From contig NC_008312.1 in assembly GCF_000014265.1 (NCBI RefSeq), positions 1,770,001 to 1,802,000 of the forward strand: a stretch of DNA of 32,000 bases. Reading direction: 5' to 3'. This DNA is from Trichodesmium erythraeum IMS101. Its GTDB lineage: Bacteria > Cyanobacteriota > Cyanobacteriia > Cyanobacteriales > Microcoleaceae. Positions 3,476 through 18,537 of the stretch are shown here, in pieces. The notes under the pieces were generated by a model, which saw only the letters and a program-made list of their open reading frames with translations, searched no databases and was not told the DNA's origin. A program made the position numbers and the translations under genes. Each line of letters begins with the position of its first letter. Position 1 is the stretch's first letter.

Positions 3476-4401
3476 CTTAGGAATTATAATTCTAGCATAA
3501 ACTGATATACTTGAATAAGTAGATATATAATATTAATTATATCAAATCTCATACATTCTTACTATATTTTATTTGTGGTAGGTAGTAAAGAGTAGGGAGT
3601 AGGAAATAGGGATTAGAGTTTTATAGAGTAAGATATCTTCAATATCTTCACGCTTTTACAAACGAACCCTTAAAATATTGGCCTTAACTTATTTACTGCT
3701 TAATAGTAAATTTTATTATAAAAAAAATTAATCTAGATTTCCATCTCATTTGAATATATATAATCTGAATTATTTGCTTTCTAAATATTATAGAGAATTA
3801 GAATAGACAAACAATTTTATTTAAGCATTCAGACATTAAATATTGAGCAACATTTAAAATACTATCAAAGCAAATTAGCTAATATTTATGATAAATTACA
3901 TCATTTTTAAAAAAGAATACTACAAATAAAAATGTGCATTTCTATCAGAGATCTTTCAAAAAGATATCCCCATTCATTTTAGACAGCTATCTCTATAATT
4001 TTTTCTTTGTTTTCAACATTTATTCTTTCTCTCCTAAATAACTATATCCTTATTTATTCTTCTTTCTTACTTACTTTTATAGCTCTAATAATTAATAGTT
4101 AAACAACCATATTTATTTTTTTATAATAGTCATTTAAGTTTAAATTTTTGTACAAAAAAAATACTAAGAACGAAAATAATAGTATTATTTTTTTGCACAA
4201 TTTTATTCAATAATTTTGTAGGTTTGAAGTAATAAATATCTATTTTATCATCATATATAACTAATTATTTACCCCATAAAATTGTTAAAGTTATTGATAA
4301 AAATATAGCGCTTTTTAAGTTGCTAAACTACAGTTTTTTCTTCTTTTATATACCCTGTTTTCCACATTACTACTCTTTAAGAGACTTTGCATAGAGTTAC
4401 C

Positions 4402-4593
4402 CTAATAAAACAAATAAATTTTGTGCCTTAAAAGTCTGAAAATTGCTGTAATAAACATAGGTAACTTCTCTTTTAGTTTAGGAACATTTGTCCTTCTATT
4501 ATCATTATGTATCTGATAATAATGAATATAATTATGAGTTATTACTTCTCCTTTTATGTGAGCAATAGGAAATTTGCAGGTAGTCAAATTCAA
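4402..4593 (-). pseudogene. decayed fragment paralogous to the 2OG-Fe(II) oxygenase-like gene at 4989-5900
   Basis: LNLTTCKFPIAHIKGEVITHNYIHYYQIHNDN aligns with VLNKLSIPVFSIAEIESQLTAHNNNNFYKIHNDN of the neighbouring gene and shares the IHNDN iron-binding motif. Similarity is lost after the motif and the rest of the domain is missing. Confidence 0.4.
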
Positions 4594-4988
4594 CTAAAAA
4601 TTAAGGTAAAACTAATTTAATTTAATTTAATCACTAATTATAGCTATGGAAATAGATAGTAAATGCAAAATTTGTATTTGCGAAAGGAGGTGTTATTAAA
4701 GTTTCAACTAGTAGTAAATTTTTGAAAATATGGCTCTAGTCTAATTACATATTAAAGATTTTTTTTCTTTGAGACCAAAGAAAAAAAATATCAATTTTAA
4801 CACATTTTTATTTAACCCAATTTCAATTATATTTGTCACCGAGTATAATTATTTATTTGAGGTCTAACTTTTATATTTGATAGCATATTTCAAGTATATA
4901 AAGTACAAATATTAATGATAAAACCTTGATAGAAAAGACATATTGCCTGTAATAGCTTTACCTGACACTTGATGACATCTATTTTATA

Positions 4989-5900
4989 TTAACTGCGACG
5001 TATCCAACCATTAATAGTAAAGCGACTATCCGCAAAATCTTGAGAAGGACAAGTTACCGGCAAAACTTCATGCATATAACGACTGAGGAAAAATACAATA
5101 GTATTATTTGTAGGTTCTATACTTTTAAATGTTTGAGCTTTTACATAGTATTTTCCTTGAATTTTACTATCATAAATTATTAGCTTACCTTCTGTAAATG
5201 CTTTAGGTTCTCGATAAAAATAGTAAACATAAGTAAGAACTCTAGTTGCAGTATCAGGAGAACCATTATCATTATGAATTTTATAAAAGTTATTATTGTT
5301 ATGAGCTGTTAACTGACTTTCAATTTCAGCAATTGAAAATACAGGAATACTCAACTTATTTAAAACATCAGGAAAAATTTCTTTAATTCTATTAACTATC
5401 AATTCTTGGAATTTTGGGAAAGAGTACAATACTAAAGAACGACGATAATTTTCAGCTTTAGTTGATGTTGTAGTTGGAGAAAAATCTGATTTTCTTTGCA
5501 AAACATAATTCAATAATTGTTTATTTTCTGATTGGCTTAGAAAATTTTCTATCAGTAAATAATGAGATTCTAAATTGTTTATTTTAGGAGTAGTATTAGT
5601 AGAATTTTTGAGATTATTTTTAGTATCTTGTGGCTGTAAATTCTGTAAAGAAATTGGTGGTTCGGTTACCATTCCGACTAAATGTTCACTGGGAAAACAT
5701 AAAGCAGAATGACCTTCTGCTAGAGGAATTTGAAATAGGGTAGAATTTTCATTTTTTTGATGTTTAGATAATAATGTTTTGGCTAAAAGTTGTAGTAAGG
5801 GTGCATCAGATTTGAGATAAATAGTATATTGATGCCCTCCTGCTAATAGGAGTTGAATTTTTACTTCTTGGGGTTCGCTTTCGGATACAGTAGTTATCAT
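4989..5900 (-). CDS. 2OG-Fe(II) oxygenase superfamily protein (prolyl-hydroxylase-like C-terminal domain) with an uncharacterised N-terminal domain
   Basis: 303 aa, ATG start. The C-terminal half carries the HxD...H...R signature in the usual order: KIHNDN, then RYMHEVLPV, then SRFTINGWI. The layout resembles 2OG-FeII_Oxy_3-type domains. The N-terminal ~110 aa are unassigned. Confidence 0.65.
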   Translation of the reverse strand: MITTVSESEPQEVKIQLLLAGGHQYTIYLKSDAPLLQLLAKTLLSKHQKNENSTLFQIPLAEGHSALCFPSEHLVGMVTEPPISLQNLQPQDTKNNLKNSTNTTPKINNLESHYLLIENFLSQSENKQLLNYVLQRKSDFSPTTTSTKAENYRRSLVLYSFPKFQELIVNRIKEIFPDVLNKLSIPVFSIAEIESQLTAHNNNNFYKIHNDNGSPDTATRVLTYVYYFYREPKAFTEGKLIIYDSKIQGKYYVKAQTFKSIEPTNNTIVFFLSRYMHEVLPVTCPSQDFADSRFTINGWIRRS

Positions 5901-5970
5901 ATTTTTGATAAATAATCAATGTCTTAAATTGGTTAATAGTTTGTAATGCCTCACAGCTTTATAGGAGAGT

Positions 5971-8900
5971 TTTTATTGTAGCACTTATGAAAAAACAGAC
6001 ATATTATATTGATAGTAAATAACTATTCCACTCGCCAAAATTGCTCTAAGTAAAATGAAAATATCCTCTCCCACATCCGACTTTTTCTCATCTCAAAAAT
6101 TCTGAGCAGAGTCAATTTTATTTTACCGCTTCTGGAGAAATAGATACATCATATTAATTACTAATTTTATTTTGTCGCTTCTAGAGAAATAGATACATCA
6201 TCTTAATTACTGAATCGCCAAAATTACTCTAAGTAAAATGAAAATATCCTCTCCCACATCCGACTTTTTCTCATCTCAAAAATTATGAGCAGAGTCAATT
6301 TAATTTTGCCGCTTTTGGAGAAATAAATACATCATATTAATTACTCATGTGATTTTGTCGCTTCTGGAGAAATAGATACATCATCTTAATTACTGAATCG
6401 CCAAAATTGCTCTAAGTAAAATGAAAATATCCTCTCCCACATCCGACTTTTTCTCATCTCAAAAATTATGAGCAGAGTCAATTTAATTTTGTCACTTCTG
6501 GAGAAATAGATACATCATATTAATTACTCATTTTATTTTGTCGCTTCTGGAGAAATAGATACATCATCTTAATTACTGAATCGCCAAAATTGCTCTAAGT
6601 AAAATGAAAATATCCTCTCCCACATCCGACTTTTTCTCATCTCAAAAATTCTGAGCAGAGTCAATTTAATTTTGTCACTTCTGGAGAAATAGATACATCA
6701 TATTAATTACTAATTTTATTTTGTCGCTTCTGGAGAAATAGATACATTATATTAATTACTGAATCACCAAAATTGCCCTAAGTAAAATGAAACTATCCTC
6801 TCCCATATCCGACTTTTTCTCATCTCAAAAATTCTGAGCAGAGTCAATTTAATTTTGTCACTTCTGGAGAAATAGATACATCATATTAATTACTAATTTT
6901 ATTTTGTCGCTTCTGGAGAAATAGATACATCATATTAATTACTGAATCGCCAAAATTGCTCTAAGTAAAATGAAAATATCCTTTCCCACATCTGACTTTT
7001 TCTCATCTCAAAAATTCTGAGCAGAGTCAATTTAATTTTGTCACTTCTGGAGAGATAGATACATCATATTAATTACTAATTTAATTTTGTCGCTTCTGGA
7101 GAAATAGATACATCATCTTAATTACTGAATCGCCAAAATTGCTCTAAGTAAAATGAAAATATCCTCTCCCACATCCGACTTTTTCTCATCTCAAAAATTC
7201 TGAGCAGAGTCAATTTAATTTTGTCACTTCTGGAGAAATAGATACATCATATTAATTACTAATTTTATTTTGTCGCTTCTGGAGAAATAGATACATCATC
7301 TTAATTACTGAATCGCCAAAATTGCTCTAAGTAAAATGAAAATATCCTTTCCCACATCCGACTTTTTCTCATCTCAAAAATTCTGAGCAGAGTCAATTTA
7401 ATTTTGCCACTTCTGGAGAAATAAATACATCATATTAATTACTCATTTTATTTTGTCGCTTCTGGAGAAATAGATACATCATCTTAATTACTGAATCGCC
7501 AAAATTGCTCTAAGTAAAATGAAAATATCCTTTCCCACATCCGACTTTTTCTCATCTCAAAAATTCTGAGCAGAGTCAATTTAATTTTGTCACTTCTGGA
7601 GAAATAGATACATCATATTAATTACTAATTTTATTTTGTCGCTTCTGGAGAAATAGATACATCATCTTAATTACTGAATCGCCAAAATTGCTCTAAGTAA
7701 AATGAAAATATCCTTTCCCACATCCGACTTTTTCTCATCTCAAAAATTCTGAGCAGAGTCAATTTAATTTTGCCACTTCTGGAGAAATAGATACATCATA
7801 TTAATTACTCATTTTATTTTGTCGCTTCTGGATAAATAGATACATCATATTAATTACTGAATCGCCAAAATTGCTCTAAGTAAAATGAAAATATCCTCTC
7901 CCACATCCGACTTTTTCTCATCTCAAAAATTCTGAGCAGAGTCAATTTAATTTTGTCACTTCTGGAGAAATAGATACATCATATTAATTACTCATTTTAT
8001 TTTGTCGCTTCTGGATAAATAGATACATCATATTAATTACTGAATCGCCAAAATTGCTCTAAGTAAAATGAAAATATCCTCTTCCATATCCGACTTTTTC
8101 TCATCTCAAAAATTCTGAGCAGAGTCAATTTAATTTTGTCACTTCTAGAGAAATAGATACATCATATTAATTACTCATGTGATTTTGTCGCTTCTGGAGA
8201 AATAGATACATCATATTAATTACTGAATCGCCAAAATTGCTCTAAGTAAAATGAAAATATCCTTTCCCACATCCGACTTTTTCTCATCTCAAAAATTCTG
8301 AGCAGAGTCAATTTAATTTTGCCACTTCTGGAGAAATAGATACATCATCTTAATTACTGAATCGCCAAAATTGCTCTAAGTAAAATGAAAATATCCTCTC
8401 CCACATCCGACTTTTTCTCATCTCAAAAATTCTGAGCAGAGTCAATTTAATTTTGTCACTTCTAGAGAAATAGATACATCATATTAATTACTCATGTGAT
8501 TTTGTCGTTTCTGGAGAAATAGATACATCATATTAATTACTGAATCGCCAAAATTGCTCTAAGTAAAATGAAAATATCCTCTCCCACATCCGACTTTTTC
8601 TCATCTCAAAAATTCTGAGCAGAGTCAATTTAATTTTGTCACTTCTGGAGAAATAGATACATCATATTAATTACTAATTTTATTTTGTCACTTCTGGAGA
8701 AATAGATACATCATATTAATTACTGAATCGCCAAAATTGCTCTAAGTAAAATGAAAATATCCTTTCCCACATCCGACTTTTTCTCATCTCAAAAATTCTG
8801 AGCAGAGTAAATTTAATTTTGCCGCTTCTGGAGAAATAAATACATCATATTAATGACTAATTTTATTTTGTCGCTTTTGGAGAAATAGATACATCATATT

Positions 8901-11900
8901 AATTACTGAATCGCCAAAATTGCTCTAAGTAAAATGAAACTATCCTCTTCCATATCCGACTTTTTCTCATCTCAAAAATTCTGAGCAGAGTCAATTTAAT
9001 TTTGCCACTTTTGGAGAAATAAATACATCATATTAATTACTCATTTTATTTTGTCGCTTCTGGATAAATAGATACATTATATTAATTACTGAATCGCCAA
9101 AATTACTCTAAGTAAAATGAAACTATCCTCTTCCATATCCGACTTTTTCTCATCTCAAAAATTCTGAGCAGAGTCAATTTAATTTTGCCACTTTTGGAGA
9201 AATAAATACATCATATTAATTACTCATTTTATTTTGTCGCTTCTGGATAAATAGATACATCATATTAATTACTGAATCGCCAAAATTGCTCTAAGTAAAA
9301 TGAAAATATCCTTTCCCACATCTGACTTTTTCTCATCTCAAAAATTCTGAGCAGAGTCAATTTTATTTTGCCGCTTCTAGAGAAATAGATACATCATATT
9401 AATTACTGAATCGCCAAAATTGCTCTAAGTAAAATGAAAATATCCTCTCCCACATCCGACTTTTTCTCATCTCAAAAATTCTGAGCAGAGTCAATTTAAT
9501 TTTGTCACTTCTGGAGAAATAGATACATCATATTAATTACTCATTTTATTTTGTCGCTTCTGGATAAATAGATACATCATATTAATTACTGAATCGCCAA
9601 AATTGCTCTAAGTAAAATGAAAATATCCTTTCCCACATCCGACTTTTTCTCATCTCAAAAATTCTGAGCAGAGTCAATTTAATTTTGTCACTTCTAGAGA
9701 AATAGATACATCATATTAATTACTCATTTTATTTTGTCGCTTCTGGATAAATAGATACATCATATTAATTACTGAATCGCCAAAATTGCTCTAAGTAAAA
9801 TGAAAATATCCTTTCCCACATCCGACTTTTTCTCATCTCAAAAATTCTGAGCAGAGTCAATTTAATTTTGCCGCTTTTGGAGAAATAAATACATCATATT
9901 AATTACTCATTTTATTTTGTCACTTCTGGATAAATAGATACATCATATTAATTACTGAATCGCCAAAATTGCTTTAAGTAAAATGAAAATATCCTTTCCC
10001 AAATCCGACTTTTTCTCATCTCAAAAATTCTGAGCAGAGTCAATTTAATTTTGCCACTTATGGAGAAATAAATACATCATATTAATGACTAATTTTATTT
10101 TGTCGCTTCTGGAGAAATAGATACATTATATTAATTACTGAATCGCCAAAATTGCTTTAAGTAAAATGAAAATATCCTTTCCCACATCCGACTTTTTCTC
10201 ATCTCAAAAATTCTGAGCAGAGTCAATTTAATTTTGCCGCTTTTGGAGAAATAAATACATCATATTAATTACTGAATCGCCAAAATTGCTTTAAGTAAAA
10301 TGAAAATATCCTTTCCCAAATCCGACTTTTTCTCATCTCAAAAATTCTGAGCAGAGTCAATTTAATTTTGCCACTTATGGAGAAATAAATACATCATATT
10401 AATGACTAATTTTATTTTGTCGCTTCTGGAGAAATAGATACATTATATTAATTACTGAATCGCCAAAATTGCTCTAAGTAAAATGAAACTATCCTCTTCC
10501 ATATCCGACTTTTTCTCATCTCAAAAATTCTGAGCAGAGTCAATTTAATTTTGCCACTTTTGGAGAAATAAATACATCATATTAATTACTCATTTTATTT
10601 TGTCGCTTCTGGATAAATAGATACATTATATTAATTACTGAATCGCCAAAATTACTCTAAGTAAAATGAAACTATCCTCTTCCATATCCGACTTTTTCTC
10701 ATCTCAAAAATTCTGAGCAGAGTCAATTTAATTTTGCCACTTTTGGAGAAATAAATACATCATATTAATTACTCATTTTATTTTGTCGCTTCTGGATAAA
10801 TAGATACATCATATTAATTACTGAATCGCCAAAATTGCTCTAAGTAAAATGAAAATATCCTTTCCCACATCTGACTTTTTCTCATCTCAAAAATTCTGAG
10901 CAGAGTCAATTTTATTTTGCCGCTTCTAGAGAAATAGATACATCATATTAATTACTGAATCGCCAAAATTGCTCTAAGTAAAATGAAAATATCCTCTCCC
11001 ACATCCGACTTTTTCTCATCTCAAAAATTCTGAGCAGAGTCAATTTAATTTTGTCACTTCTGGAGAAATAGATACATCATATTAATTACTCATTTTATTT
11101 TGTCGCTTCTGGATAAATAGATACATCATATTAATTACTGAATCGCCAAAATTGCTCTAAGTAAAATGAAAATATCCTTTCCCACATCCGACTTTTTCTC
11201 ATCTCAAAAATTCTGAGCAGAGTCAATTTAATTTTGTCACTTCTAGAGAAATAGATACATCATATTAATTACTCATTTTATTTTGTCGCTTCTGGATAAA
11301 TAGATACATCATATTAATTACTGAATCGCCAAAATTGCTCTAAGTAAAATGAAAATATCCTTTCCCACATCCGACTTTTTCTCATCTCAAAAATTCTGAG
11401 CAGAGTCAATTTAATTTTGCCGCTTTTGGAGAAATAAATACATCATATTAATTACTCATTTTATTTTGTCACTTCTGGATAAATAGATACATCATATTAA
11501 TTACTGAATCGCCAAAATTGCTTTAAGTAAAATGAAAATATCCTTTCCCAAATCCGACTTTTTCTCATCTCAAAAATTCTGAGCAGAGTCAATTTAATTT
11601 TGCCACTTATGGAGAAATAAATACATCATATTAATGACTAATTTTATTTTGTCGCTTCTGGAGAAATAGATACATTATATTAATTACTGAATCGCCAAAA
11701 TTGCTTTAAGTAAAATGAAAATATCCTTTCCCACATCCGACTTTTTCTCATCTCAAAAATTCTGAGCAGAGTCAATTTAATTTTGCCGCTTTTGGAGAAA
11801 TAAATACATCATATTAATTACTCATTTTATTTTGTCACTTCTGGATAAATAGATACATCATATTAATTACTGAATCGCCAAAATTGCTTTAAGTAAAATG

Positions 11901-12346
11901 AAAATATCCTTTCCCAAATCCGACTTTTTCTCATCTCAAAAATTCTGAGCAGAGTCAATTTAATTTTGCCACTTATGGAGAAATAAATACATCATATTAA
12001 TGACTAATTTTATTTTGTCGCTTCTGGAGAAATAGATACATTATATTAATTACTGAATCGCCAAAATTGCTTTAAGTAAAATGAAAATATCCTTTCCCAC
12101 ATCCGACTTTTTCTCATCTCAAAAATTCTGAGCAGAGTCAATTTAATTTTGCCACTTATGGAGAAATAAATACATCATATTAATGACTAATTTTATTTTG
12201 TCGCTTCTGGAGAAATAGATACATTATATTAATTACTGAATCGCCAAAATTGCTTTAAGTAAAATGAAAATATCCTTTCCCACATCCGACTTTTTCTCAT
12301 CTCAAAAATTCTGAGCAGAGTCAATTTAATTTTGTCACTTCTGGAG
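5971..12346. repeat. 6.3-kb non-coding tandem array: 31 x 183 bp, 4 x 134 bp and 1 truncated (106 bp) unit, preceded by a decayed half-unit
   Basis: Unit starts (TCGCCAAAATT..) were read at 6032, 6215, 6398 ... 12241 with exact 183-bp spacing. Units at 8228, 9277, 10143 and 10826 are 134 bp. There is no ORF >=60 aa on either strand. 5971-6031 resembles a degraded 49-bp sub-repeat. Confidence 0.97.
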
Positions 12347-12420
12347 TTAAAGGTAATGCATATTATGTAAATTATCACTAAAAACAGAGAACTAAAAACT
12401 GATAACTTATCCGGCTTTTT

Positions 12421-13974
12421 CTAATGTAAAAAGTGACGAATTCCGGTGAGTATCATTATCAAACCTAATTCATTTGCTGCAGCAATAGAATCTTTATCTT
12501 TCAGACTACCACCTGGTTGAATAATTGCAGTTACTCCTGCTGCTGCTGCTGTTTTTACGGAATCATCAAAAGGGAAAAAAGCGTCACTAGCTAATACACC
12601 TCCAATAGCTTTTTCCCCTGCTTGTTCCAAAGCTATTTTTACTGCCCCGACTCTATTCATTTGACCCGCACCAATACCAACAGTAGCTCGATTTTTTGTC
12701 ACAACAATTGCATTAGACTTAACGTGCTTCACCACCTTCCAAGCAAACATTAATTCTTCTATTTGTTCAGTAGTTGGTTGTTTTTCTGTAACGATTTTCC
12801 AATCACTATAATTATCTATCGTATCATCAGTATCTTGTACTAAAAAACCCCCAGAAATTACTTTTATAGTTTCCGGTTCACTCTGTTTGAAATATGGTGA
12901 AATTAAGACTCTTAATTTAGATTTAGATTTAAAAATTTTCTCCGCTTCAGGTTCACATCCAGGAGCAACTACACATTCCAAAAAGGTCTTAGTCATTGCC
13001 TTAGCAGTTGCTGCATCAATAGATTTATTTAAAGCAACAATTCCTCCAAAAGCTGAAACTGAATCTCCGGCAAAAGCTCTTTCATAAGCTGCCAAAATAG
13101 TTTCATCAACTGCAACTCCACAAGGATTTGTATGTTTAAGAATTGCTACAGTCGGAGCATCAGAAAATTCTATAATAATCCGTCTTGCTGCTTCTAAATC
13201 TACTAAATTATTATAGCTTAATTCTTTACCTTGAATAATTTTACTTGCACCCCAACCACTAGCATTAATTCCTCTTTGATACCAAGTTGCATATTGATGA
13301 GGGTTTTCTCCATAACGCAAAGTTTTAATTTTTTTGCCAGAGAGAAAAAATATTTCTTTTTCTGATTTTTCCGACTCAGAAGTTGTTTGTTGCTCCTGTA
13401 AATAAGTAGCGATCGCCTGGTCGTAAGTTGCGGTATGTTTAAATCCTGCTAATGCACATTTTTGACGAAATTCTAAGGATACTTCCCCGGCATTTTTTCT
13501 TAACTCTTCTAAATAAGAATTGTATTGAAAATGGTTGCATAAAACTGTCAGATGAGCAAAATTTTTAGCTGATGCTCTTAACATTGCAGGTCCGCCAATA
13601 TCAATTTTTTCAATTGCTTCTGCCAGAGTAACTTCTGGTTTAGAAATTGTTTCTTCAAAGGGGTATAAATTAACAACAACTAAGTCAATAGGTCGAATAT
13701 TATTAGCATTTAGTTCTTCAACATCTTGAGGCAAATCTTTTCTTGCTAAAATACCCCCATGAATGCGAGGATGTAATGTTTTAACTCTACCTCCTAAAAT
13801 TTCTGGAAATCCCGTATAGTCAGATACCTTAGTAACATAAATTCCAGCATCTTTGAGAGTTTTAGCAGTACCGCCACTACTAATTATTTCATAGTCAAAT
13901 TCTGTAACTAGACTTTTTGCTAAATCAATCAGACCTGTTTTATCAGATGTACTAAGTAATGCTAAACGTTTCAT
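12421..13974 (-). CDS. purH: bifunctional phosphoribosylaminoimidazolecarboxamide formyltransferase / IMP cyclohydrolase
   Basis: 517 aa, ATG start. It has the MGS-like IMP cyclohydrolase N-terminus (ALLSTSDKTGL..., GGRVKTLHPRIHGGIL) and the AICARFT domain (YGENPHQ..., KHTNPCG, IIQPGGS.KD). Confidence 0.97.
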   Translation of the reverse strand: MKRLALLSTSDKTGLIDLAKSLVTEFDYEIISSGGTAKTLKDAGIYVTKVSDYTGFPEILGGRVKTLHPRIHGGILARKDLPQDVEELNANNIRPIDLVVVNLYPFEETISKPEVTLAEAIEKIDIGGPAMLRASAKNFAHLTVLCNHFQYNSYLEELRKNAGEVSLEFRQKCALAGFKHTATYDQAIATYLQEQQTTSESEKSEKEIFFLSGKKIKTLRYGENPHQYATWYQRGINASGWGASKIIQGKELSYNNLVDLEAARRIIIEFSDAPTVAILKHTNPCGVAVDETILAAYERAFAGDSVSAFGGIVALNKSIDAATAKAMTKTFLECVVAPGCEPEAEKIFKSKSKLRVLISPYFKQSEPETIKVISGGFLVQDTDDTIDNYSDWKIVTEKQPTTEQIEELMFAWKVVKHVKSNAIVVTKNRATVGIGAGQMNRVGAVKIALEQAGEKAIGGVLASDAFFPFDDSVKTAAAAGVTAIIQPGGSLKDKDSIAAANELGLIMILTGIRHFLH

Positions 13975-14285: not shown

Positions 14286-15884
14286 TTATTTAAAACTCCG
14301 CTTTTCCATTAGACGTAGCTCAAGAGACTCTGTTACTTTTCTGAGCTCCCCAATAACTTTTATATCATCATCATATTTAAACTTTTCCATCTGTTTTACC
14401 GTATCTTTTAGTTGTTTTACTAATGATTCTAATTTGTCAATATTAAAATTATTTTGATGTTCGTAGATTAGTTTTATTGCTTCTAGTCTAATTGTGAAAG
14501 ATTCTTTAGTATCCTTAATCCTAGCAAGTAGTTTCTTTAAATTCTTATAATCAAGACAGTTTAGTTTTCTCAAAATTCTTTTTCTATATAAGTGGTAACC
14601 TATAGTAATCACAACTGCTACAATTACTACTAAGATAGCAGACCATTGGATAGTAGATATAAAACGCCGTTTTTCTATACTTTTGTTCAAGTATTCAAAC
14701 CTCTCCTGGGTATTTTTAACTGATAACCGAGTTTCTCCTAACTTCTGAAATATTGACTTTTGCAGAGACTTATAACTATCAAGTTCATTCTGTATTTTTT
14801 CTTTCAAAGAAGGAAGTTCATTAACCCTGAAATTATTAACATTTTCTACCCTTCTTTGAAGATTAGGTTTTTGACTTAATGCCCCCTGAGTAAATCTTGG
14901 AGCTTTCAGAAGATCGCGACCTTCAAAATATAAGTTATTAAGGGGTGTGATTCTATCCTCTATTTTATCAGATTCCTTTCTTAAATTATCAACTAAAATT
15001 TTAGTCTTTTTTTCAGCTTGAGAAATTTGATCAAATAAATCATTTATGAGGAATAAATTATTTTCTGTACCACTAATAATTTCCTTATTTAATGTCAAAC
15101 TTTTCACGTTTTCATATTCACTAATCTGAAGCTCAAAATTGTCAGATTCTTTTTCTATAGTTTTAATCTTACGAATAAGCTCTGATTTTTCTTGTGGAAT
15201 TGTTTGTATAACACTGTCTATATTATCAATTGTTTGATCAACAAAATCCAACTCACGATTCGCACATTCTATCCAATTATCTATCTGTTCTCTAGTAATT
15301 AATCTAGTATCTACAACCTTTTTTTGTGCAGCTAGCCAATTATTCCAAGAAGGAAGAAATCTTTTGGCATCTGAAACATTTTCTTCAATCCTTATTAAAT
15401 TATTACTAAAAATTTTAAAGTTATTTGAGCTTGAATTTGTAGACTCTTTTAGTGGCAAATAAATATCTCTTAATTTATTACAATACTCATTCTTTTTAGC
15501 TAAATATTTTTCATCGCCAACTTCTTGATTATTATTGGCTAAACTGCATATATTTTCTAGCTCAGATATCAAACTATCAAGGTCTTCACCAATAGACCTA
15601 ATACTACCTTTTATTTTCTCTAAATTCCCTTGTGCTTGATCTACATATTTTTCTTGATACTTAACTTCATTCTTAAATTTCCAATAAATATTATTAATTC
15701 TATCAATTTTTGATTGAGAGGCTCTACCAGGGGGTGGCTGTCTGTAAAGTTCTTGATAATTTTCTGAATTTCTCACCTTATTTGATAGGCTTAACTCCTC
15801 TGCCAATGAAATTTCTAAACTCTCTATCTTTTCAGAAACAGTTTGATTTAATTTAGTTTCCAATTGCGTTACTTTTTCTTTCAC
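14286..15884 (-). CDS. 532-aa coiled-coil protein with a single TM helix near the C-terminus (cassette gene 4), function unknown
   Basis: GTG-initiated ORF 24 nt after the stop of the upstream ORF. About 410 aa are heptad-like and rich in E/K/N/L/I. A hydrophobic helix follows (WSAILVVIVAVVITIGYHLY plus RKRILRK), then a ~95-aa helical tail. No enzymatic motif recognised. Confidence 0.6.
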   Translation of the reverse strand: MKEKVTQLETKLNQTVSEKIESLEISLAEELSLSNKVRNSENYQELYRQPPPGRASQSKIDRINNIYWKFKNEVKYQEKYVDQAQGNLEKIKGSIRSIGEDLDSLISELENICSLANNNQEVGDEKYLAKKNEYCNKLRDIYLPLKESTNSSSNNFKIFSNNLIRIEENVSDAKRFLPSWNNWLAAQKKVVDTRLITREQIDNWIECANRELDFVDQTIDNIDSVIQTIPQEKSELIRKIKTIEKESDNFELQISEYENVKSLTLNKEIISGTENNLFLINDLFDQISQAEKKTKILVDNLRKESDKIEDRITPLNNLYFEGRDLLKAPRFTQGALSQKPNLQRRVENVNNFRVNELPSLKEKIQNELDSYKSLQKSIFQKLGETRLSVKNTQERFEYLNKSIEKRRFISTIQWSAILVVIVAVVITIGYHLYRKRILRKLNCLDYKNLKKLLARIKDTKESFTIRLEAIKLIYEHQNNFNIDKLESLVKQLKDTVKQMEKFKYDDDIKVIGELRKVTESLELRLMEKRSFK

Positions 15885-15908
15885 TAATTCAAGCTCTGAT
15901 AAACTAAA

Positions 15909-16274
15909 TTATGGAGGTTGATACAGTTGACGGACAGCAAGTATACAAAATACTAATAATATAATAATAATTGGATTTTTCCAGCAAAATTTAGCAACAT
16001 AATAATGCCATCCAACTATAATTGACTTAGGAATAGCTATTCCCGATCTGAAATAAGCAAATATTGAATAGGCTAAAGCAAAAATACAATAGACAAACGG
16101 TAAAAGCATAACAATTCTACTTTGGCTTTCCTGAAAAAGAAACCATAATAGCCAAAGATATACTAGGGCAATAAAAGTAGTTAAAGTATATCCAAAAGCT
16201 AAAGGTAAAGTTATACAAAAAAACCAATTCCAAAAAGAATTTTTAGTGAGCGATCGCTGATTATACATCTCCAA
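15909..16274 (-). CDS. small polytopic membrane protein, ~4 TM helices (cassette gene 3), function unknown
   Basis: 121 aa from the TTG at 16274. An ATG at 16266-16268 gives 119 aa. Either start overlaps the stop (16261-16263) of the upstream ORF, which suggests translational coupling. Strongly hydrophobic (FCITLPLAFGYTLTTFIALVYLWLLWFLF..). Confidence 0.55.
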   Translation of the reverse strand: MEMYNQRSLTKNSFWNWFFCITLPLAFGYTLTTFIALVYLWLLWFLFQESQSRIVMLLPFVYCIFALAYSIFAYFRSGIAIPKSIIVGWHYYVAKFCWKNPIIIILLVFCILAVRQLYQPP

Positions 16275-16851
16275 TTAAACCTCTATAAATTGCTGTAGAA
16301 AAACCGTTATAAACTTTTAGATATAATTCAAAACGAACAGAATTTCTTAACAAATATTGCAGCATAATTATCCAAATATTAATGTTAAATTTAGTTCTAG
16401 ATGCGTAGGTAAGAAGAGTAATAGCTGCTGCATCTGCAATACTTGTATCCCTGCGTTGAAGAAGCATTTTAAACAAACCAAGAGGGAGAAAAAAGAAGCT
16501 ACTATAGCCATTTGAAGATAACCTACTCAGGAATTTTAAAACTCTTAAGGGACTACAAGGATCATATTCTTTATGGGATAAATCAAAATTTTTCCGCTTG
16601 AGGAGTTGTGCCACAAAACTTTGAATAAACCCACTCAGGAGCTTTTTGTCATCAGCTCTGACAAATGAAAGGCCATTTACAACTGCTGTCGCTAATACAG
16701 GGTCTCTAGATGCAACTTTAGGGTCTAATATCTTATGAAGTTCCTTAGAAATACCAATTGAAATTGCTATTGTTCTGAATAACCAAAAATTAATTTCTCC
16801 TTTCTGGAGTATTTCCTTCAAGCCATTTTCAACAAGATAGCGAGCTGCCAA
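16261..16851 (-). CDS. 196-aa helical protein (cassette gene 2), in frame with and probably the detached C-terminal region of the upstream NTPase
   Basis: The track start is a TTG at 16849-16851. The frame is the same as ORF 16867-18537 and is separated from it only by TAA (16867-16869) and five sense codons (R A A D Y). No Shine-Dalgarno sequence, no family recognised. Confidence 0.5.
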   Translation of the reverse strand: MAARYLVENGLKEILQKGEINFWLFRTIAISIGISKELHKILDPKVASRDPVLATAVVNGLSFVRADDKKLLSGFIQSFVAQLLKRKNFDLSHKEYDPCSPLRVLKFLSRLSSNGYSSFFFLPLGLFKMLLQRRDTSIADAAAITLLTYASRTKFNINIWIIMLQYLLRNSVRFELYLKVYNGFSTAIYRGLIGDV

Positions 16852-16866
16852 ATAGTCAGCAGCTCT

Positions 16867-18537
16867 TTAATTAAAAAATCTAGAAAAATAATCATTATTG
16901 GCATCTAATTCTATTAGGCGATATTGTTCTGCCAGATCCATAATACTAGGAATTACAATAAAAAAATCAAATTTATTTTGACTTCTCAAACCTAAATTTT
17001 GCCACTGCAACTGAGAGGTATTTAAGATTTTCAGTATTCTTATAAACTGTCTATCACTTTCAATAATTTTGAGTTCTTGGATTTTATCTACTGATAGTTC
17101 ATAAGATTGATATTGAGCTAACCTTTGGCTTATTTTTTTGTCAAAATTGACTATATCATTTTTCAAATATTTGTATTTTTCATATAGTGAATTAACAATA
17201 CTATCATTGGAAATACTTACACCGTAATGAGAAGTTTGTTGAATTTTTAAAGATATCCTCATAAGATGAAAGCTCAAAACTGATAATACTTCCAAAAGGT
17301 ATTTAAATAGGACTGGTTCTATTTTTTCAAAACGGTTTTGTGGATTTATATCCATACCTTTTAATATCTCCCGTTTTAACTCTAGATCGTGCAAACTGCT
17401 GATAGATGGGATGCGATTTTTTGTATCAGCAAAATCTGATTTATCAGAAGAGAATGAAACTTGATATAGCCATAACGATAAATAGTAAGGGTTCCTTAAA
17501 AAGGATTCCTGTTCTGCATTAGTATTTATGATTGTCAAAATAGTTTTTCTAATTTGATTCTGGGCTAAAGTATCGTGTTGCAAACTTGTTAATCGCTTAT
17601 TTAAAAGTTCTTTAATTTGCAGTACACTCATGGGTTTTATTCTGATATTTGCTACTTGCAAAGTATTAGCATACGCTTTATATTCTTCTTCTCTACATGA
17701 TAAAATCCATCTAGTTTTATTACCGCTATTTTTCATTAAAATTGATAAATAATCAAAGAGAGTTTCCCGTTTACTTTTGTCTATAAACTCATCTAAAGCA
17801 TCAATAATAATCACAAAATTGAGAGATAGTTTCTTATTCCATAAAACTATAAAATCTTTAAACTCAGGCTTTGATAACTTACCATTAAGTTCATATACAT
17901 TTGTAATAAATGCCAGAATTTTTGTTATATTTTTACCATGCTTGTTTAACACTTTTTCAACATCATTAGCATGAATAAAAATGGGAATAAAATCTCCTAT
18001 GCTTTCGGAAAATTCTTTGGTATAGTTTGCAAGTGCTTTATATAAAGTTGTAGACTTTCCACTTCCTGGAGGACCGTATATAAATACCCTAGATTTGTTT
18101 GGAGATAACAAGTATTTATCAAGATTTGCTATGTTAGTTCGCTGACTACCTCCTTTTTCTTCATAAGCTTGTTGAGACATCAGACCATTTGGATTTCCTG
18201 GCTCTCCGGATAAACTTACATAATTACTTTTTAGATCAAATCCAAGTTCAAATTCTACTTCCTGGTTTACAGCAGTCAGATAATTGTCAATGACTTTTTT
18301 ATCTCTTACTGTTAATAAACGCCTAAATGTATTTCTAGTCTTGTAATACTTTATAAACCCAGAAAATAACAAGTAAATTACTAGGATACCCCAAATGAAT
18401 AGGACAATATAAGACAGGTATTTCAATAATTTATTGTCACTGGATAAATAATTTAATGCAATTGGAAGTGAAATACTTATTACAGTTAAAAATATTCTCC
18501 ATAATACTTTTTGTTCTTTTTCAGCTATGCTTAACAT
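16867..18537 (-). CDS. membrane-anchored NACHT/STAND-like P-loop NTPase (cassette gene 1)
   Basis: 556 aa, ATG start. Two N-terminal TM helices (~res 12-32 and 41-62). Walker A is GPPGSGKST (res 155-163, nt 18049-18075). Walker B is FVIIIDALDEF (res 241-251). These are followed in NACHT-like order by WILSCREEE, IRIKPMSVLQIKELL and RNPYYLSLWL. The domain call rests on motif order only. Confidence 0.65.
   Translation of the reverse strand: MLSIAEKEQKVLWRIFLTVISISLPIALNYLSSDNKLLKYLSYIVLFIWGILVIYLLFSGFIKYYKTRNTFRRLLTVRDKKVIDNYLTAVNQEVEFELGFDLKSNYVSLSGEPGNPNGLMSQQAYEEKGGSQRTNIANLDKYLLSPNKSRVFIYGPPGSGKSTTLYKALANYTKEFSESIGDFIPIFIHANDVEKVLNKHGKNITKILAFITNVYELNGKLSKPEFKDFIVLWNKKLSLNFVIIIDALDEFIDKSKRETLFDYLSILMKNSGNKTRWILSCREEEYKAYANTLQVANIRIKPMSVLQIKELLNKRLTSLQHDTLAQNQIRKTILTIINTNAEQESFLRNPYYLSLWLYQVSFSSDKSDFADTKNRIPSISSLHDLELKREILKGMDINPQNRFEKIEPVLFKYLLEVLSVLSFHLMRISLKIQQTSHYGVSISNDSIVNSLYEKYKYLKNDIVNFDKKISQRLAQYQSYELSVDKIQELKIIESDRQFIRILKILNTSQLQWQNLGLRSQNKFDFFIVIPSIMDLAEQYRLIELDANNDYFSRFFN

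What the first reader, a model, noticed from the sequence alone, without database searches (positions are those of the whole stretch)
5971..12346. 6.3-kb ORF-free tandem array of 36 x 183-bp units between a 2OG-oxygenase-like gene and purH
Allowing single substitutions, the motif TCGCCAAAATT recurs at 6032, 6215, 6398, 6581, 6764, 6947, 7130, 7313, 7496, 7679, 7862, 8045, 8228, 8362, 8545, 8728, 8911, 9094, 9277, 9411, 9594, 9777, 9960, 10143, 10277, 10460, 10643, 10826, 10960, 11143, 11326, 11509, 11692, 11875, 12058 and 12241. That gives 31 units of exactly 183 bp, 4 of 134 bp and a final truncated unit of 106 bp (31x183 + 4x134 + 106 = 6315 bp, ending at 12346). A decayed half-unit precedes the array. 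Copies differ by only a few substitutions each. There is no ORF >=60 aa on either strand, and each unit carries stop codons in all frames. Every part of the unit is conserved, so there are no spacers. An array this long, this regular and this homogenised takes up a fifth of the window and is rare in a bacterial chromosome. The exactly conserved unit length argues for ongoing homogenisation or selection on length. Possible roles, all inference: a battery of per-unit promoters producing an abundant repeat-derived ncRNA, one long repetitive ncRNA, an iteron- or centromere-like protein-binding array, or a neutral satellite. I cannot tell from sequence alone whether it has been described before.
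Basis: partly seen in the sequence, partly recalled or inferred. Interest (0 to 1): 0.9.

Follow-up and report, generated by a model that had tools for sequence, protein, structure and literature searches.

The report
Ancient 6.3-kb satellite beside purH
Between two ordinary genes of the marine cyanobacterium Trichodesmium erythraeum lies a real 6.3-kb block of 36 near-identical non-coding repeats, born from a duplication of the tail of purH and still found at the same spot in related genera, though no function for it can be shown from sequence.

Summary
There are 36 in-phase units at 6032-12346: 31 of 183 bp, 4 of 134 bp and one of 106 bp. All lie on one strand and none contains an ORF. The window is T. 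erythraeum IMS101, and the array sits between Tery_1127 (2OG oxygenase) and Tery_1128 (purH).

New findings:
- Each unit is an 85-bp core plus one or two copies of a 49-bp module.
- The core ends in a copy of the purH stop codon and its last ~12 nt, and decayed copies flank the array. The array therefore began as a tandem duplication of the purH 3' end plus its downstream spacer.
- Homologous arrays occupy the same spot in T. thiebautii-type genomes (2.8 diverged 134-bp units), two Dapis strains and one unnamed relative (3 to more than 12 units of ~150 bp). Okeania SIO2C9 and Microcoleaceae MO_207.B10 lack it.
- Units are homogenised within each genome but diverge between genomes at about the synonymous-site rate.
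- There is no conserved RNA structure, no Rfam match, no conserved ORF, no terminator and no conserved palindrome. The only conserved motif is a -10-like hexamer.

Best reading: an old satellite driven by recombination and hugely expanded in T. erythraeum. The main rival is a battery of repeat-derived ncRNAs like the published Tery_0080 array. That can be tested with existing dRNA-seq data that I could not reach.

The parts
4989..5900 (-). Tery_1127, a 2OG-Fe(II) oxygenase ('prolyl 4-hydroxylase alpha subunit', ABG50489.1). It lies downstream of the array on the purH strand.
   Evidence: ORF; Pfam PF13640/PF13661; exact match to the IMS101 protein.
5901..5960 (-). Leader region of Tery_1127. 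About 87% identical to Dapis M229 by eye over the first 56 nt, so it is better conserved than the repeat units.
   Evidence: Alignments; sequences.
5971..6031 (+). Decayed copy of the 49-bp module at the Tery_1127 end of the array. It carries a perfect TATAAT on the minus strand (6008 to 6003), in the same alignment columns as the -10-like hexamer of the units.
   Evidence: Alignment A1; sequence; hexamer analysis.
6032..12346 (+). The array: 36 head-to-tail units (31 x 183, 4 x 134, 1 x 106 bp). There are 66 copies of the 49-bp module.
6398..6580 (+). Example unit: 85-bp core at 6398-6482, module A at 6483-6531, module B at 6532-6580.
   Evidence: Period-49 rows in TRF; consensus.
8228..8361 (+). 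First of four 134-bp units, each with a single 49-bp module. The others are at 9277-9410, 10143-10276 and 10826-10959.
8896..10273 (+). A 1378-bp block (about 7.5 units) repeated exactly at 10445-11822. This is a higher-order duplication with a period of 1549 bp.
12347..12432 (+). Decayed terminal unit. Its last part (12411-12432, CCGGCTTTTTCTAATGTAAAAA) is the true purH stop codon plus the last codons, and it is homologous to the unit's conserved block CCGACTTTTTCTCATCTCAAAAA.
   Evidence: In L020 and Dapis the last unit merges directly into the purH stop.
12421..13974 (-). purH (Tery_1128, ABG50490.1). Its 3' end abuts the array.

Best explanation
This is an old non-coding satellite that exists in one lineage only.

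Origin: in an ancestor of Trichodesmium and Dapis, a segment of about 135-150 bp was duplicated in tandem. The segment comprised the last ~12 nt of purH, its stop codon and the spacer downstream.

Maintenance: since then, unequal crossing-over or gene conversion between units has kept the interior copies alike within each genome, while the edge copies decay.

Expansion: in the T. erythraeum lineage a 49-bp module inside the unit was duplicated again (134 to 183 bp). The array then expanded, partly through multi-unit blocks, to at least 26 and nominally 36 units.

Function: the sequence itself appears to evolve at roughly the neutral rate. I therefore infer that the array has no sequence-specific cellular function and is tolerated in a genome that is already 40% non-coding. 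Any transcription from its promoter-like modules would be incidental.

Shown: the anatomy, the origin from the purH 3' end, orthologous arrays in other genera, concerted evolution, and the lack of coding or RNA-structure signal. Inferred: the neutrality and the recombination mechanism.
For: Anatomy and reality of the array.

Origin from the purH 3' end: in Dapis M229 and L020 the terminal unit is identical to interior units up to GACTTTTTCT, then continues as the purH stop and last codons (TTTTTACA is shared). In IMS101 a decayed unit fills 12347-12432.

Same locus in other genomes:
- 2.8 units of 134 bp in Trichodesmium sp. MAG_R02 and in GCA_000987385.1.
- 12 or more units of 149 bp in GCA_010672085.1.
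- About 3 units in Dapis BLCC M126 and at least 8 in Dapis BLCC M229, each ~150 bp.
- One alignment (A2) with 74% mean column identity and a shared duplication junction.

Concerted evolution: interior units are 92-100% alike within IMS101. Edge copies are decayed and of the Dapis type.

Neutral-like rate: IMS101 units are 72-78% identical to L020 and Dapis units over most alignable stretches, with one 52-nt stretch at 90%. purH four-fold sites are 79-82% identical between the same genomes. The adjacent Tery_1127 leader is better conserved.

Dispensable or variable:
- Absent from Microcoleaceae MO_207.B10, whose purH is as close to Dapis and L020 as they are to each other, and from Okeania SIO2C9.
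- Only 2.8 diverged units in the sister Trichodesmium species.

No functional signal:
- No Rfam hit.
- No consensus RNA structure on either strand; folding z-scores of +0.58 and -1.5.
- Small ORFs are not conserved.
- No terminators, and promoter-like sites are not above shuffle expectation.
Against: - The tandem state has survived in five of the six sampled lineages of the clade. That is long for a bacterial tandem repeat, which is exposed to recombinational deletion.
- One hexamer resembling a -10 box (TATGAT / TATAAT / GATAAT on the minus strand) is kept in all 13 units compared. It is homologous to a perfect TATAAT in the copy next to Tery_1127.
- In IMS101 there are about 30 variable sites and no indel. 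This hints at a constraint on unit length.
- The published dRNA-seq excluded RNAs shorter than 300 nt and split multi-mapping reads. Silence in that paper's main text therefore does not show that the array is untranscribed.
Confidence: 0.5

Rival explanations
1. The array is a battery of promoter modules producing a repeat-derived non-coding RNA. Each 49-bp module would carry a promoter, so the array would fire up to 66 times. Transcription could run on the + strand, convergent with and antisense to the purH 3'-end copy, as in the Tery_0080 array. Or it could run on the minus strand towards Tery_1127. Either way it would yield abundant, short, unstructured RNAs or strong read-through into Tery_1127.
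For: - The published array beside Tery_0080 in the same genome has the same build. It is tandem and about 6 kb, each unit contains a copy of the 3' part of the adjacent reverse-strand gene, and it has one TSS per repeat (PMC4143802).
- A -10-like hexamer on the minus strand is conserved in all 13 units from five lineages, and in the copy proximal to Tery_1127.
- In Trichodesmium the + strand has TTG[TC]CA-18-CATCAT about once per unit (30 sites). T. thiebautii-type units have TTGCAA-18-GATTAT.
- The module that was duplicated again in T. erythraeum is exactly the one carrying these motifs.
- The 2014 dRNA-seq would have under-reported it because of the >300-nt size selection and the fractional counting of multi-mapping reads.
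Against: - The array is not among the 24 strongest TSS in the paper.
- The promoter-like count is not above shuffles (34 found, 37.5 expected) and there is no terminator-like site.
- The + strand -35/-10 spacing is not kept in Dapis or L020 (28 nt instead of 18).
- No usable -35 lies upstream of the minus-strand hexamer.
- There is no conserved RNA structure.
- Unit sequence diverges at about the synonymous rate.
- The sister species keeps only 2.8 diverged units.
Confidence: 0.3
2. The array is a protein-binding or architectural DNA element, such as an iteron- or centromere-like array, a nucleoid-organising element or a curved-DNA element. It would act as double-stranded DNA and depend on a regular repeat length.
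For: - Unit length is exactly constant in IMS101, with no indels.
- Short AT-rich blocks are conserved across lineages: CTTTTTCT, AAAATTTCTGAGTAG, ATTTTGCC and AGA.A.ATTAT.
- AA/TT periodicity is weak at 11-12 bp in the IMS101 unit and significant at 11-11.5 bp in the L020 unit.
Against: - No palindrome or inverted repeat is conserved across lineages.
- Unit length differs between lineages (134, 149-155 and 183 bp), and indels occur in Dapis.
- There is no phasing at 10-10.5 bp.
- No partition, replication or obvious DNA-binding gene is adjacent.
- The array is lost in MO_207.B10 and reduced to 2.8 units in the sister species.
Confidence: 0.08
3. The copy number is an assembly artefact. The repeat is real, but the 36 units in the Sanger-era reference are over- or under-counted, and natural genomes hold only 2-4 units.
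For: - Several short-read contigs bridge purH to Tery_1127 with only 1.6, 2.6 or 3.6 units (L002; L001 and L021; L024).
- A 1378-bp exact internal duplication is longer than a Sanger read.
Against: - 26 distinct unit sequences sit in a consistent register.
- Most other T. erythraeum assemblies, including GBRTRLIN201, break inside the repeat on both sides, as expected for a long array.
- Contigs carrying the 2OG protein variant named for T. erythraeum strain 21-75 extend 3-3.5 units in the same 183-bp register with their own variants.
- De Bruijn assemblers routinely collapse tandem repeats.
Confidence: 0.1

Closest known systems
The >6-kb tandem repeat array beside Tery_0080 in T. erythraeum IMS101 (Pfreundt et al. 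2014, PMC4143802)
   Same: Same genome and similar total length. Both are intergenic, with near-identical head-to-tail units. In both, each unit includes a copy of the 3' part of the neighbouring gene that lies on the opposite strand at the array's end.
   Different: That array has 7 units of 736-973 bp and this one has 36 units of 183 bp. That one has a mapped TSS per repeat, a ~260-nt transcript shown by Northern blot, and 44.7% of all primary reads. Nothing is known about transcription of this one, and it is not in the paper's top-24 TSS list.
Non-coding satellites / VNTR-type long tandem repeats of prokaryotes (survey: Subirana and Messeguer 2019, PMC6749651)
   Same: Head-to-tail non-coding repeats with a unit longer than 30 nt. 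They arise from replication or recombination errors, are unique to one locus, and are shared only with close relatives.
   Different: According to that survey, most prokaryotic satellites are short overall and many lie inside genes. This one is 6.3 kb with 36 units, and its locus is conserved across at least two genera with independent homogenisation in each.
CRISPR repeat-spacer arrays
   Same: A ~49-bp direct repeat recurs at regular intervals in an ORF-free region. Automated finders could flag it.
   Different: The 85-bp stretches between the modules are all the same sequence, so there are no spacers. The modules also occur back to back. No cas gene was seen in the window. The repeat does not form a conserved hairpin.
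Plasmid centromere or iteron arrays (for example sopC of F, 12 x 43 bp; named from memory)
   Same: Tandem direct repeats without spacers, and a constant unit length.
   Different: This array is chromosomal. It has no adjacent partition or replication genes, no conserved inverted-repeat binding site, and a much longer unit.

Membership tests
Prokaryotic non-coding satellite / VNTR | Head-to-tail direct repeats without unique spacers | tested here: met
   36 units in register, and every unit position is repeated.
Prokaryotic non-coding satellite / VNTR | Not protein-coding | tested here: met
   No ORF of 60 aa or more. The 16-aa (+) and 31-aa (-) ORFs are interrupted or lack a start codon in T. 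thiebautii-type units. 134-bp and 49-bp steps break any reading frame.
Prokaryotic non-coding satellite / VNTR | Concerted evolution: units more alike within a genome than between genomes, with decayed edge copies | tested here: met
   Units are 95.8% identical on average within IMS101, against 72-78% to L020 and Dapis units over most stretches. Edge copies are of the ancestral type. Exception: the T. thiebautii-type array has only three units that are ~84% alike.
Prokaryotic non-coding satellite / VNTR | Copy-number variation between strains | tested here: inconclusive
   Bridging contigs hold 1.6, 2.6 or 3.6 units, while other contigs break in the repeat. Collapse by short-read assemblers cannot be separated from real variation. 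Between species and genera the copy number clearly differs, from 2.8 to 36.
Repeat-derived ncRNA array (Tery_0080 type, PMC4143802) | Each unit contains a copy of the 3' part of the adjacent gene on the opposite strand | tested here: met
   The unit core ends in a copy of the purH stop codon plus ~12 nt of coding sequence. This is much shorter than a 'part of a gene'.
Repeat-derived ncRNA array (Tery_0080 type, PMC4143802) | One primary transcription start per unit and an abundant discrete transcript | not testable with these tools
   No RNA data are reachable and the paper's supplement is not held. The array is not listed among the top TSS in Table 1.
Repeat-derived ncRNA array (Tery_0080 type, PMC4143802) | Recognisable promoter in each unit | tested here: inconclusive
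   A -10-like hexamer is conserved in all 13 units. The + strand has TTG[TC]CA-18-CATCAT about once per unit (30 sites), but the total is not above shuffles and its spacing is not conserved outside Trichodesmium.
CRISPR array | Repeats separated by unique spacers | tested here: not met
   All 85-bp inter-module stretches are copies of one sequence.
CRISPR array | cas genes nearby | tested here: not met
   Pfam scan of ten ORFs of the window found no Cas family. Only the 32-kb window was examined, and not every ORF in it.
Structured ncRNA (any Rfam family) | Match to a covariance model, or a conserved secondary structure with covariation | tested here: not met
   No hit at gathering threshold. 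Only HSR-omega_2 at 18-21 bits against 55 needed. RNAalifold consensus energy is about 0 on both strands, for single and doubled units.
Iteron / centromere-like binding array | Conserved binding motif (usually an inverted repeat) in each unit, and cognate partition or replication genes nearby | tested here: not met
   The inverted repeats found in IMS101 units are not kept across lineages. No such genes are adjacent.

The most novel reading that the evidence does not exclude
The array is a second, independently formed 'ncRNA factory' in Trichodesmium. A small RNA gene or promoter overlapping the 3' end of purH would have been amplified to as many as 66 promoter modules. Its product would have been missed in 2014 because RNAs shorter than 300 nt were excluded and multi-mapping reads were split. 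Together with the Tery_0080 array, this would point to a general route by which this lineage amplifies the dosage of non-coding RNAs through tandem duplication at gene 3' ends, maintained since before the Trichodesmium-Dapis split.
Probability: 0.25. Interest if true: 0.7.

Novelty: new member of a known kind. Interest (0 to 1): 0.45.

Why it matters
- T. erythraeum is the textbook case of a free-living bacterium with 40% non-coding DNA. This array alone takes up 6.3 kb of that, and in the literature I could search it is undescribed.
- The array derives from the purH 3' end and is orthologous across Trichodesmium, Dapis and a further relative. That gives a rare dated example of a long non-coding satellite persisting and being homogenised in bacteria.
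- Its build parallels the Tery_0080 array that makes the cell's most abundant RNA. This makes one precise question testable with existing data: is tandem duplication at gene 3' ends a recurrent way of amplifying ncRNA genes in this lineage, or just a recurrent mutational accident?
- Practically, the locus breaks or collapses in every short-read assembly examined here. It is a candidate VNTR marker for Trichodesmium strains and a known trap for MAG assemblies.

Tried and rejected
- **Same as the published array?** No. That one has 7 repeats of 736-973 bp at 103-110 kb beside Tery_0080. This window holds Tery_1127-1129.
- **Literature.** Searches for Tery_1126-1129, Trichodesmium tandem repeats, and satellites found no description of this array. 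The PNAS 2015 paper and the Sci Rep supplement are not held.
- **Rfam.** Nothing at gathering threshold. The weak HSR-omega_2 matches (E 0.1-0.5, 21 vs 55 bits) are rejected as chance in AT-rich repeats.
- **Conserved RNA structure.** None on either strand, for single or doubled units. Folding energies are no better than shuffles.
- **Coding.** The 16-aa and 31-aa ORFs are not conserved. The 31-aa product is not on record in any assembly.
- **CRISPR.** Rejected, because the 'spacers' are identical.
- **Mobile or phage origin.** No match in phage or plasmid records or in viral contigs. In 185,579 species genomes the 23-mer occurs only in a Trichodesmium MAG, plus one chance hit.
- **JGI metagenome scans.** The first found nothing. 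The second returned only chance single hits.
- **DNA curvature.** No AA/TT phasing at 10-10.5 bp, and only weak power at 11-12 bp.
- **Intrinsic terminators.** None in the array.
- **Inverted repeat ATTTTGYCGC / GCGNCAAAAT around the -10-like block.** Present in IMS101 and L020 but not in the other lineages.
- **Placing the abundant ncRNA ncr1753291 ('next to DNA photolyase') relative to the window.** A relative has a photolyase gene a few kb beyond Tery_1127, but the IMS101-type contig has no such ORF there. I make no claim.

Full report
**1.

- The motif TCGCCAAAATT (at most one substitution) occurs 36 times, at exactly the listed coordinates. All hits are on the + strand and none lies elsewhere in the 32-kb window. 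The spacings are 31 x 183 bp and 4 x 134 bp.
- Tandem Repeats Finder gives period 183, 95-97% matches and 0% indels.
- No ORF of 60 aa or more lies between 5901 and 12420 on either strand. The longest ORFs within units are 24-31 aa.
- The 183-bp units are on average 95.8% identical (range 92.3-100%), and 26 of the 36 units are distinct sequences.
- A 23-nt piece of the unit occurs 66 times, against 0 expected from shuffles.

**2. Anatomy**

- Each 183-bp unit is an 85-bp core followed by two copies of a 49-bp module. The four 134-bp units have one module.
- The stretch before the array (5971-6031) is a decayed module.
- The 'truncated' last unit continues as a decayed unit (12347-12432) that ends inside purH.
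- A block of 1378 bp, about 7.5 units, is repeated exactly 1549 bp further on (8896-10273 = 10445-11822). The array therefore also grew by multi-unit duplications. That block is longer than a Sanger read, so the exact count of 36 deserves confirmation.
- GC content (~30%) matches the surroundings. GC skew is strongly negative on the + strand, as in the adjacent purH.

**3. Where it is**

The flanking proteins are identical to T. erythraeum IMS101 proteins:
- ABG50489.1, a 2OG-Fe(II) oxygenase annotated 'prolyl 4-hydroxylase alpha subunit'. I infer this is Tery_1127.
- ABG50490.1, PurH. I infer this is Tery_1128.
- ABG50491.1, named Tery_1129 by its source.

All three sit on the 7,750,108-bp chromosome (Pfam). 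Both flanking genes are on the minus strand, so the order on that strand is purH, then the array, then Tery_1127.

**4. Is it the published array?**

No. Pfreundt et al. 2014 (PMC4143802) describe a tandem array of more than 6 kb with 7 repeats of 736-973 bp, at 103-110 kb beside Tery_0080. It yields 44.7% of all primary reads. This 183-bp array is not in that paper's main text or in Table 1. The supplement with all 6,080 TSS is not held. No paper in the searchable library mentions Tery_1126-1129 or this array.

Two points from that paper matter here:
- Each repeat of the published array contains a duplicated 3' part of the neighbouring reverse-strand gene.
- The library excluded RNAs shorter than 300 nt and split multi-mapping reads among their matches. 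A short transcript from 36 near-identical units would have been under-reported.

**5. Origin**

In three relatives the last unit of the homologous array is identical to interior units up to GACTTTTTCT. It then continues as the purH stop codon and last codons (AATGTAAAAAGTGACG), where interior units read CCTGTAAAAATTTCTGAG. So the unit contains a copy of the purH stop and about 12 nt of its coding end. In IMS101 the true purH end is CCGGCTTTTTCTAATGTAAAAA (12411-12432), and the unit block is CCGACTTTTTCTCATCTCAAAAA. The array therefore began as a tandem duplication of the purH 3' end plus about 135 bp of downstream spacer. This is the same kind of event that built the Tery_0080 array.

**6. Relatives**

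| Genome | Locus | State of the purH-2OG intergenic region |
|---|---|---|
| T. erythraeum assemblies incl. GBRTRLIN201 (identical PurH or 2OG) | L003, L014 and others | Most contigs break inside the repeat on both sides |
| Contigs carrying the 2OG variant named for strain 21-75 | L022, L025 | Extend 3-3.5 units in the same 183-bp register, with their own variants |
| Some metagenome contigs | L002; L001 and L021; L024 | Bridge the gap with 1.6, 2.6 or 3.6 units |
| Trichodesmium sp. MAG_R02, and GCA_000987385.1 (T. thiebautii H9-4 from memory, not verified) | L012, L155 | The same 2.8 units of 134 bp; units only ~84% alike, so the assembly there is reliable |
| GCA_010672085.1 (organism name not obtained) | L020 | At least 12 units of 149 bp, 95% matches, with a 10-N gap |
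| Dapis sp. BLCC M126 | L027 | About 3 units of ~151 bp |
| Dapis sp. BLCC M229 | L029 | At least 8 units of ~149-153 bp, with a 100-N gap |
| Okeania sp. SIO2C9 and Microcoleaceae MO_207.B10 | L031, L032 | purH-2OG synteny kept, but the intergenic DNA is unrelated |

- For the bridging contigs, short-read collapse and real variation cannot be told apart.
- Thirteen units from five lineages align with 74% mean column identity and share the duplication junction (alignment A2).
- The MO_207.B10 purH is as close to the Dapis and L020 purH as those are to each other. Loss or replacement of the array in MO_207.B10 is therefore likely.
- In a further lineage the 2OG gene has other upstream neighbours, and no units lie upstream of it. 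In L020 the 304-aa 2OG gene is missing and the array abuts the next gene. The repeat therefore goes with purH, not with Tery_1127.

**7. Evolutionary mode**

- Interior units are homogenised within each genome. Edge copies in Trichodesmium are decayed and look like the Dapis-type unit; for example, they keep 5 bp that are deleted in the homogenised units. This is concerted evolution.
- The ancestral Trichodesmium unit was 134 bp. The 49-bp module was duplicated and spread in T. erythraeum.
- Between genera the units are 72-78% identical over most alignable stretches, with one 52-nt stretch at 90%. purH four-fold degenerate sites are 79-82% identical between the same genomes.
- The first ~56 nt of the Tery_1127 leader are about 87% identical to Dapis M229, by eye.
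- The unit as a whole therefore shows no purifying selection.
- The longest run of invariant columns is 7 (TTTTTCT). By my own estimate, that is not significant given 36% invariant columns.

**8. Tests for function**

- *RNA.* There is no Rfam hit at gathering threshold. Relaxed search gives only sub-threshold HSR-omega_2 matches. RNAalifold finds essentially no consensus structure on either strand, for single or doubled units. Folding energies of two units are no better than shuffles (z +0.58 on +, -1.5 on -).
- *Coding.* The small ORFs are not conserved.
- *Promoters.* The only -10-like hexamer kept in all 13 units lies in the module. It reads TATGAT / TATAAT / GATAAT on the minus strand and overlaps nATTAT on the + strand. 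The copy next to Tery_1127 has a perfect TATAAT at 6008-6003, about 95 nt upstream of the start codon. On the + strand, TTG[TC]CA-18-CATCAT occurs about once per unit (30 sites), but the total is not above shuffle expectation (34 vs 37.5). That spacing is 28 nt in Dapis and L020.
- *Terminators.* None.
- *DNA-level features.* No palindrome is conserved across lineages. There is no A/T-tract phasing at 10-10.5 bp, and only weak power at 11-12 bp.
- *Mobile origin.* No phage, plasmid or viral match. There is no other copy in 185,579 species genomes apart from a Trichodesmium MAG and one chance hit.

**9. Verdict**

The feature is real and unusual in size. I could not find a description of it.

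The best-supported account is a recombination-maintained satellite derived from the purH 3' end, massively expanded in T. erythraeum, with no demonstrable sequence-level constraint (confidence about 0.5).

The main rival (about 0.3) is a battery of promoter modules producing a repeat-derived ncRNA. This is made plausible by three things: the conserved -10-like element, the extra duplication of exactly that module, and the precedent of the Tery_0080 array. Remapping existing dRNA-seq data with multi-mappers retained would decide between the two.

Noticed in passing
window 4148-4846 (minus strand): Broken remnants of a second, ~206-aa 2OG-oxygenase paralog lie between Tery_1127 and the ABC permease gene. 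The tblastn fragments are 40-55% identical and have frame changes. The paralog is intact in Dapis, Okeania, L020 and GCA_000987385.1, so it appears to be a pseudogene in IMS101.
   Followed up: partly
L012 about 185-355; the same in L155: T. thiebautii-type genomes carry a ~165-bp insertion between the decayed module and the first unit. Its ends look like terminal inverted repeats (GTAAGTATTCAGC... / ...GCTGAATGCTTAC), which suggests a MITE.
   Followed up: no
L156-L159 (contigs encoding 2OG protein P0069): Contigs with the identical 2OG protein have three different upstream neighbours (arginine decarboxylase, a PfkB kinase, and another gene). The region upstream of this gene therefore seems to be a rearrangement hot spot in that lineage.
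   Followed up: no
window 14286-18537; compare L001-L004: The Tery_1129 hypothetical protein and the NACHT/STAND NTPase genes next to purH are split into different sets of smaller ORFs in several Trichodesmium MAGs. These are either pseudogenes or highly variable genes.
   Followed up: no
L020 9377-9500: In GCA_010672085.1 the 304-aa 2OG gene is missing, and the array ends ~55 nt from the start codon of the 207-aa paralog. This looks like a deletion that started inside the array.
   Followed up: partly
L013 7925-9347: The IMS101-type contig has a 1.4-kb stretch with no ORF of 80 aa or more just past the NUDIX gene. A relative (L157) has a DNA photolyase gene in the corresponding position. The paper's very abundant ncRNA ncr1753291 is described as overlapping a photolyase gene, but its position relative to this window could not be established.
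   Followed up: partly
L020 about 8052-8061; L029 7761-7860: Runs of N (10 and 100) lie inside the homologous arrays of two relatives, so their true copy numbers are unknown.
   Followed up: no
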